Source: Octopus vulgaris (lineage: Eukaryota). Taken from it: a DNA stretch of 64,000 bases. The DNA is taken from the NCBI GenBank assembly GCA_951406725.2, contig OX597832.1:62248001-62312000 (forward strand), given 5' to 3'. The position numbers and the translations under genes were made by a program. Below, one piece after another: positions 21,823 through 22,021 of the stretch; the stretch's first letter is position 1; every line of letters begins with the position of its first letter. The notes beneath the pieces were generated by a model, which was not told the origin of the DNA, searched no databases, and saw only the letters and a program-made list of their open reading frames with translations.

Positions 21823-22021
21823 TTACAGAGATGTTCTTGCATAGCAAATGATTTGAGCTGAGATCGTGTGCTGAAACGAAAACAATTGCAGCGTGGAAGG
21901 TGTTTGTAAGCCATTTAAAGAACACATAAAAGCCGTTCGATTCACTTCAACATTTAAGTTTAATTTGTCAAAATATTTTCGTCGCTTCAAGACCGCGACC
22001 TGTTCACTGACAAAAATCGTG
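21823..22021 (-). mobile_element. About 200-bp insertion within (TA)n carrying a hammerhead motif near its 5' end
   Basis: Pure (TA)n on both sides; ribozyme fold at 21964-22014. Confidence 0.75.
21964..22014 (-). ncRNA. Minimal type I hammerhead ribozyme, G3-C8 core variant
   Basis: Minus strand UUUGUCA-GUGAACA-G-GUCGC(GGUCUUGAA)GCGAC-GAA-A(AUAU)U-U-UGACAAA: 7-bp stem I, 5-bp stem II, palindromic AAUAUU stem III. Confidence 0.75.

What the first reader, a model, noticed from the sequence alone, without database searches (positions are those of the whole stretch)
21823..22021. Complete minimal hammerhead ribozyme with a natural G3-C8 core swap, inserted in (TA)n
Seen: the minus strand folds as a type I hammerhead with a 7-bp stem I (UUUGUCA/UGACAAA), a 5-bp stem II (GUCGC/GCGAC), GAAA, an NUH site (UUU) and a self-complementary stem III (AAUAUU). 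The CUGANGA box reads GUGAACA, so positions 3 and 8 are both changed. Established: C3 and G8 form a tertiary Watson-Crick pair, and hammerheads with tiny palindromic stem III from Penelope-like elements cleave as dimers. Inference: the double change is compensatory, so this may be a functional variant that standard CUGANGA searches miss, carried by a TA-targeting retroelement family.
Basis: partly seen in the sequence, partly recalled or inferred. Interest (0 to 1): 0.85.

Follow-up and report, generated by a model that had tools for sequence, protein, structure and literature searches.

The report
Swapped-core hammerhead fixed in octopus retroelement
This 199-base insertion is the stub of a Penelope-like jumping gene whose hammerhead RNA motif carries two paired core letters swapped in thousands of copies, while related elements in the same genome keep the normal pair, so it is likely a natural, weakly self-cutting variant, though cutting is untested.

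Summary
Observation confirmed, with one omission: an extra G lies between A9 and stem II, a known mark of Penelope-element (PLE) minimal hammerheads. The insert is a 5'-truncated copy of an autonomous PLE (RT + GIY-YIG, Neptune/Nematis-type linker). It holds the hammerhead, a spacer and the first 30 codons of the ORF. G3-C8 is the master state: 8,126 exact core matches, in all four subfamilies. Older families and a sister family in this genome keep C3-G8; metagenomic relatives show U3-A8. Positions 3 and 8 pair in 15 of 15 aligned motifs. Against strong activity: most copies begin upstream of the motif, none pile up at the cut site, the dimer helix is marginal, and the thriving sister family has C at position 9. 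U3-A8 is the published natural swap. C3G/G8C is a published partial rescue, also in a PLE. I found no natural G3-C8 in seven searches, but two key papers were unavailable. This scan noted G3-C8 motifs in two other genomes (unchecked). Verdict: new variant of a known kind; cleavage untested.

The parts
21823..22021 (-). 5'-truncated PLE copy: end of the pseudo-LTR plus tail, solo, in (TA)n
   Evidence: 91% identical to the pLTR of the tandem parent L118; no PLE protein match elsewhere in the window
22008..22014 (-). stem I, 5' arm (7 nt)
22001..22007 (-). core box GUGAACA: G3 at 22007, C8 at 22002, A9 at 22001
   Evidence: family state
22000..22000 (-). extra nucleotide (G) between A9 and G10.1
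   Evidence: hallmark of PLE minimal hammerheads (PMC4209133), whose consensus has H here
21981..21999 (-). stem II (5 bp) with 9-nt loop II, the part that differs between subfamilies
21972..21980 (-). GAAA box and palindromic AAUAUU (predicted intermolecular stem III)
21970..21971 (-). U17 and predicted cut site (between 21971 and 21970)
   Evidence: hammerhead numbering; cleavage not tested
21964..21970 (-). stem I, 3' arm
21825..21914 (-). first 30 codons of the PLE ORF (ATG at 21914)
   Evidence: continues into the parent ORF in L118; that N-terminus is 38% identical over 120 aa to the sister family's (E 8e-28)
21823..21882 (-). about 60-nt tail between the two preferred 3' ends of family copies
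   Evidence: 32 of 67 copies end with it, 27 without, 8 otherwise
21777..21822 (.). (TA)n target, left
22022..22081 (.). (TA)n target, right

Best explanation
The insert is a truncated copy of a Penelope-like retrotransposon, and its motif is a homologue of the minimal type I hammerhead of these elements with the C3-G8 pair swapped to G3-C8, which likely still cuts after U17, slowly and probably only as a dimer or with help from the element's protein. Shown: the parent, the position of the motif (about 1 kb after the stop codon and about 90 nt before the next ATG in tandem copies), the family-wide G3-C8 state and the C3-G8 state of relatives. Inferred: transcription starts about 20 nt before stem I. 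A transcript through pLTR-ORF-pLTR would carry one motif at each end, 4.3 kb apart, and these could pair through AAUAUU. Reverse transcription starting inside the ORF start and running to the uncut, capped 5' end would give the abundant 150-210 nt stubs. The swap would keep the 2'-OH of residue 8 (the general acid) in place at reduced rate; U17 would avoid an inhibitory G3-C17 pair. The window copy itself is likely inert: it has no partner and lacks the upstream region.
For: Parent: 1,025-aa frame with DKSG, YVDD, CxxxCxxC and GIY-YIG (Pfam GIY-YIG 25.4 bits, cutoff 22.6); pLTR-ORF-pLTR in L118 with motifs at 2242 and 6503. Fixed state: G at 3 in 6,116 of 6,291; G3-C8 in 93 of the first 100 listed, in 82 of 99 copies of the oldest subfamily and 29 of 29 of the youngest. 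Relatives: all 20 exact C3-G8 matches belong to older decayed families, 7 of them followed by a sister-type ORF start. The sister family groups with this one (SH-aLRT 99, quick tree) and is C3-G8. In 15 motifs the 3-8 pair is C-G 10, G-C 3, U-A 2, never unpaired; 10 of 13 pairs change on both sides; 0 of 500 shuffles reach this, and slid controls give 26-53% paired against 91%. Within the family 0 of 42 structured positions are polymorphic against 7 of 57 loop and spacer positions (p 0.02, 23 copies). Literature: C3G/G8C partly restores cleavage, also in the Anolis PLE hammerhead, which needs its protein (PMC11167929); G3-C8 does worse with C17 than G17 (PMC3884650, data not shown there).
Against: No cleavage data and no raw RNA reads. 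59 of 67 copies begin between the putative start site and stem I. Only 151 copies with AT-rich flanks begin inside positions 43-70, and by eye 11 of the first 100 begin at the cut site or one base before it, against 2-6 per position nearby: no pile-up. AAUAUU self-pairs at -0.2 kcal/mol and the double hammerhead gains only 0.6 kcal/mol. The minimum-energy fold pairs G3 with U17. The young sister family has C at 9 in 94 of the first 100 of 3,872 matches. The three G-C rows are one evolutionary event, and the rows are related.
Confidence: 0.62

Rival explanations
1. The motif descends from a hammerhead but no longer cuts to any useful degree. It is kept as a folded 5' leader (protein binding, translation or template positioning) or merely rides along.
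For: Copied templates were mostly uncut. Sister family thrives with C9. G8 occurs in 233 matches, more than A8 and U8 together (167). Relatives show other core departures (C9, U15.1-A16.1). In Anolis, hammerhead mutants do not affect insertion in vitro and no RNA ends map to the cut site (PMC11167929). Naiad PLEs spread without hammerheads (PMC8557442).
Against: The 3-8 pair is a tertiary contact of the active fold, yet it is kept through three different pairs. Core and stems stayed unchanged by substitution across four subfamilies while loop II changed.
Confidence: 0.3
2. A non-autonomous small element (SINE-like or retrozyme) that spreads through tandem or circular hammerhead RNAs.
For: Most copies are about 200 nt with fixed ends. 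Animal retrozymes derive from PLE pLTRs (bioRxiv 10.64898/2026.07.22.740005).
Against: No tandem array of the unit in the window. Copies are contiguous with the parent ORF, end at two tail points, and 29 of 60 loci have a head-to-head partner, as truncated PLEs do.
Confidence: 0.06
3. A chance hammerhead-like fold in a repeat.
For: No Rfam hit; weak folding z-score.
Against: 0 hits in 19.2 Mb of simulated sequence; canonical motifs at the homologous place in relatives; covariation.
Confidence: 0.02

Closest known systems
Minimal type I hammerheads of metazoan Penelope-like elements (Cervera and De la Pena 2014, PMC4209133)
   Same: In the pLTR; extra nucleotide between 9 and 10.1; G10.1-C11.1; small palindromic stem III; mostly single truncated copies; inverted partners nearby.
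   Different: Core pair G3-C8 instead of C3-G8 or U3-A8; extra nucleotide is G where their consensus has H; stem I is 7 bp.
Natural U3-A8 core variants (Perreault 2011, PMC3088659; Schistosoma Cercyon PLEs, PMC4209133)
   Same: Compensatory change of the same tertiary pair.
   Different: U3-A8 needs two transitions and keeps a purine at 8. G3-C8 needs two transversions and puts a pyrimidine at the general-acid position; I found it in print only as a laboratory double mutant.
PAc (Poseidon of Anolis carolinensis; Frangieh 2024, PMC11167929)
   Same: Hammerhead near the ORF start; two 3' ends inside the ORF start that define a tail; AT-rich targets; no sign of RNA ends at the cut site.
   Different: PAc is C3-G8 and its ORF starts in stem II; here the ATG lies 50 nt after stem I and the protein has a CX2-5CxxC linker, absent from Penelope/Poseidon.
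Neptune / Nematis PLE clades (features as listed in PMC8557442)
   Same: C-terminal GIY-YIG, CCHH, CX2-5CxxC linker, (TA)n bias.
   Different: No named reference was in my tree, so the clade is not resolved.

Membership tests
Hammerhead ribozyme, type I | Three-way junction with stems I and II and G10.1-C11.1 | tested here: met
Hammerhead ribozyme, type I | Literal CUGANGA box | tested here: not met
   GUGAACA; Rfam models give no hit
Hammerhead ribozyme, type I | Watson-Crick pair between positions 3 and 8; U4, G5, A6, A9, G12, A13, A14, A15.1-U16.1, H17 | tested here: met
Hammerhead ribozyme, type I | Self-cleavage after H17 | not testable with these tools
   indirect genomic test showed no pile-up of 5' ends at the site
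PLE minimal hammerhead | Located in the pLTR of a PLE | tested here: met
   L118, L113-L117
PLE minimal hammerhead | Extra nucleotide 9/10.1 and palindromic short stem III | tested here: met
   definition
PLE minimal hammerhead | Activity as a dimer | not testable with these tools
   dimer can be drawn but gains only 0.6 kcal/mol
EN+ Penelope-like element (parent) | Single ORF with RT and C-terminal GIY-YIG | tested here: met
   Pfam scored GIY-YIG only, RT recognised by motifs and by homologues labelled RT; the longest frame seen (1,025 aa) lacks the true start
EN+ Penelope-like element (parent) | Partial tandems, inverted 5'-truncated partner, tail | tested here: met
   tail is about 60 nt, longer than the 30-40 nt in PMC8557442
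Neptune or Nematis clade | CX2-5CxxC linker | tested here: met
   CQSNCAVC
Neptune or Nematis clade | RT phylogeny with named members | not tested
   tree had no named references and is a quick tree
Non-LTR retrozyme | Tandem repeats each with a hammerhead | tested here: not met
   solo in the window; dispersed copies tied to a coding parent

The most novel reading that the evidence does not exclude
This is the first natural, active G3-C8 hammerhead, kept for the whole life of a successful retrotransposon lineage. It belongs to a PLE subclade whose cores vary (G3-C8, U3-A8, C9, U15.1-A16.1) while always keeping the 3-8 pair, because selection favours slow rather than fast or dead ribozymes. 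Searches on CUGANGA would then miss whole families in animal genomes.
Probability: 0.3. Interest if true: 0.72.

Novelty: new variant of a known kind. Interest (0 to 1): 0.5.

Why it matters
The C3-G8 pair holds the catalytic acid of the best-studied small ribozyme; the G3-C8 swap is known from the bench as a partial rescue. Here it is the fixed state of more than 8,000 genomic copies, with canonical and C9 relatives in the same genome. That gives a ready natural series for asking what PLE hammerheads are for, which is still open, and shows that descriptor and Rfam searches undercount them.

Tried and rejected
1. G3-G8 as the preserved intermediate of the swap. G8 is in excess (233 against 167 for A8 plus U8; slightly wider pattern, and it includes a few copies of other families) and 22 of 24 classifiable G3-G8 copies are of older type. 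But the oldest subfamily is C8 in 91 of 99, and 18 G8 copies share no private allele against 31 C8 copies. Rejected; the excess is unexplained. 2. 5' ends at the cut site as a fossil of cleavage: not found (counted by eye, first 100 of 151). 3. Rfam: no hammerhead hit. 4. Public runs: four organism labels hold the stretch. In four runs laid, no difference was listed at positions 3 or 8, but 35 rows were not shown and the 'RNA' label is a guess, so this is not evidence of expression. 5. Further PLE families in the genome by a distant protein query: only the same two appeared, under a stricter first look. 6. Metagenome relatives: 19 loci; the descriptor hit 5 (L134, L136, L147, L151, and L149 with an unpaired A3/G8 and a 3-bp stem I), two more were read by eye (L133, L135), L140 looked degenerate, the rest showed none or end too early. 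L149, L151 and L140 were left out of the 15-row alignment; the 3' half of L135 is out of register there. 7. The 5' boundary as a splice acceptor (branch-like and pyrimidine-rich upstream): not excluded, but G precedes the boundary in 21 of 34 copies, which fits a copied cap better. 8. No host gene recognised among window ORFs. 9. Lunse 2017 and Przybilski 2007 are not held.

Full report
Observation. One feature was missed: a G at 22000 between A9 and stem II. A descriptor looser than the real motif hits once in the window and never in 150 simulated windows. Rfam does not see it. Folding energy alone is modest.

Family. The 199 bases are one of thousands of dispersed copies in a 2.8-Gb genome. 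The nearest named protein hits of the parent are labelled Octopus vulgaris, so the host is likely an octopus. A 16-mer that spans the G3-C8 box matches 8,126 times, control 1. With 3 and 8 left free there are 6,291 matches; 175 lack G3, and 93 of the first 100 listed are G3-C8, none C3-G8.

Parent. [quoted passage not shown] L118 is pLTR-ORF-pLTR with motifs 4.3 kb apart. The last 90 bases of the window insert are the first 30 codons of that ORF. I sampled 60 loci from the first places listed, leaving out two already fetched (one G3-G8, one U3-C8). Of 67 copies there, 32 end with a tail, 27 about 60 nt earlier and 8 elsewhere; 21 of 30 tail ends abut TA-like sequence; 29 of 60 loci hold a head-to-head partner. 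These are the PLE hallmarks given in PMC8557442 (passages) and match the two internal RT starts of PAc in PMC11167929 (parts 1-2 of 4).

How the stubs likely arise. Only 8 of 67 copies extend upstream of a fixed boundary about 20 nt before stem I. Where copies begin exactly there, the preceding base is G in 21 of 34 (all loci held; p 2e-8 against an assumed 18% G). A TATA-like run lies about 30 nt upstream (promoter reading from my own knowledge). I infer a transcription start, with the G copied from the cap. A splice acceptor is not excluded; Drosophila Penelope has an internal promoter and an intron in this region (PMC2377424, passages).

Is the swap compensatory? Four subfamilies, 7.7, 4.6, 3.0 and 1.7% diverged from their majorities (23, 37, 47, 29 copies), are all G3-C8 (that sample is enriched for G8 copies by my selection, and two classes were defined by loop II). 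In 23 full-length copies of the C1 sample, 0 of 42 structured positions are polymorphic against 3 of 8 in loop II and 4 of 49 in the spacer. All 20 exact C3-G8 matches belong to older decayed families, not to this one; 7 run into a sister-type ORF start. The young sister family (58% RT identity; sister in the quick tree) has C3-G8 with C at 9 in 94 of the first 100 matches and canonical A9 in 6. Metagenomic relatives add U3-A8 (L134, L135), canonical cores (L136, L147, L151) and a U15.1-A16.1 form (L133). In an alignment of 15 motifs the 3-8 pair is intact in all 15, in three forms, and 10 of 13 pairs change on both sides. The rows are related and G-C is a single event, so this shows homology and a kept pair, not many independent swaps. 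Since C3-G8 surrounds it, G3-C8 is the derived state. No intermediate subfamily was found.

Does it cut? Untested. For: C3G/G8C partly restores activity (review PMC8495972, passages), also in a PLE hammerhead that cuts only with its protein. PMC3884650 (passages) notes that G3-C8 does worse with C17; this family has U17, as do the sister and several older C3-G8 copies, so the swap arose on a permissive background (inference, one event). Against: the predicted fold pairs G3 with U17; the dimer gains 0.6 kcal/mol; genomic 5' ends do not pile up at the cut; the C9 sister thrives. PLE minimal hammerheads are weak even when canonical (PMC4209133, parts 1-2 of 4). I put weak, assisted cleavage at 0.62 and a non-cutting relic at 0.3.

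Novelty. PLE hammerheads, the extra nucleotide, the palindrome and natural U3-A8 are published (PMC3088659, section 8). Seven full-text searches returned G3-C8 only as a laboratory mutant and no octopus PLE hammerhead. In the supplement of PMC4209133 I saw passages of file 2 only, all with CUGA boxes; file 1 was not searchable. Lunse 2017, the largest survey of these motifs, and Przybilski 2007 are not held; I saw them only as references and through a review (PMC6765202, passages), and either could bear on novelty. PMC6155905 (passages), the supplement of PMC8557442 (passages) and the retrozyme preprint (part 1 of 5) added nothing on G3-C8. This scan's notes report G3-C8 motifs behind PLE RTs in two other genomes (unchecked), and nothing similar by sequence or in this genome.

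Verdict. A real, family-wide, derived G3-C8 hammerhead motif in an autonomous PLE lineage, with canonical relatives beside it. New variant of a known kind; predicted by the structure, so moderately surprising, but directly testable. Interest 0.5.

Noticed in passing
L125:5886-5934 and L128-L131 (sister family): A very young PLE family (copies about 99% identical, intact 1,312-aa frames) has a hammerhead with C at position 9 in 94 of the first 100 of 3,872 matches; 6 keep A9.
   Followed up: partly
L133:4968-5020; L134:2492-2536; L135:3424-3466: Related PLEs from metagenome contigs carry other rare cores: U15.1-A16.1 (L133), U3-A8 with C9 (L134), U3-A8 (L135).
   Followed up: partly
genome-wide, e.g. 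L152-L181: G at position 8 (mismatched G3-G8) is commoner than A and U together (233 against 167), mostly in older copies, without shared private alleles. Unexplained.
   Followed up: partly
L118:2195-2225: Fixed 5' boundary of most copies with an extra G in 21 of 34 and a TATA-like run 30 nt upstream: possibly a genomic record of a capped start site.
   Followed up: partly
G000:C8:45699264-45699340 and five further inverted pairs: Head-to-head junctions that fall at or next to the predicted cut site; the local palindrome could explain them without cleavage.
   Followed up: no
window 21714-21748 and 22167-22201: An imperfect inverted repeat of about 35 bp flanks the microsatellite that holds the insert, suggesting an older small element around it.
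   Followed up: no
L025:1500-2730: Two family copies inserted into a decayed RT-like frame of another element; one appears to have a 9-bp target duplication (read by eye).
   Followed up: no
window 30467-30961 and 45142-45564: Remnant frames that look like a mariner-type transposase and a LINE fragment (recalled resemblance, not tested).
   Followed up: no
P0110: A public Octopus gene model named dynein regulatory complex subunit 6-like contains a piece 71% identical to this PLE protein: exonisation or an annotation error.
   Followed up: no
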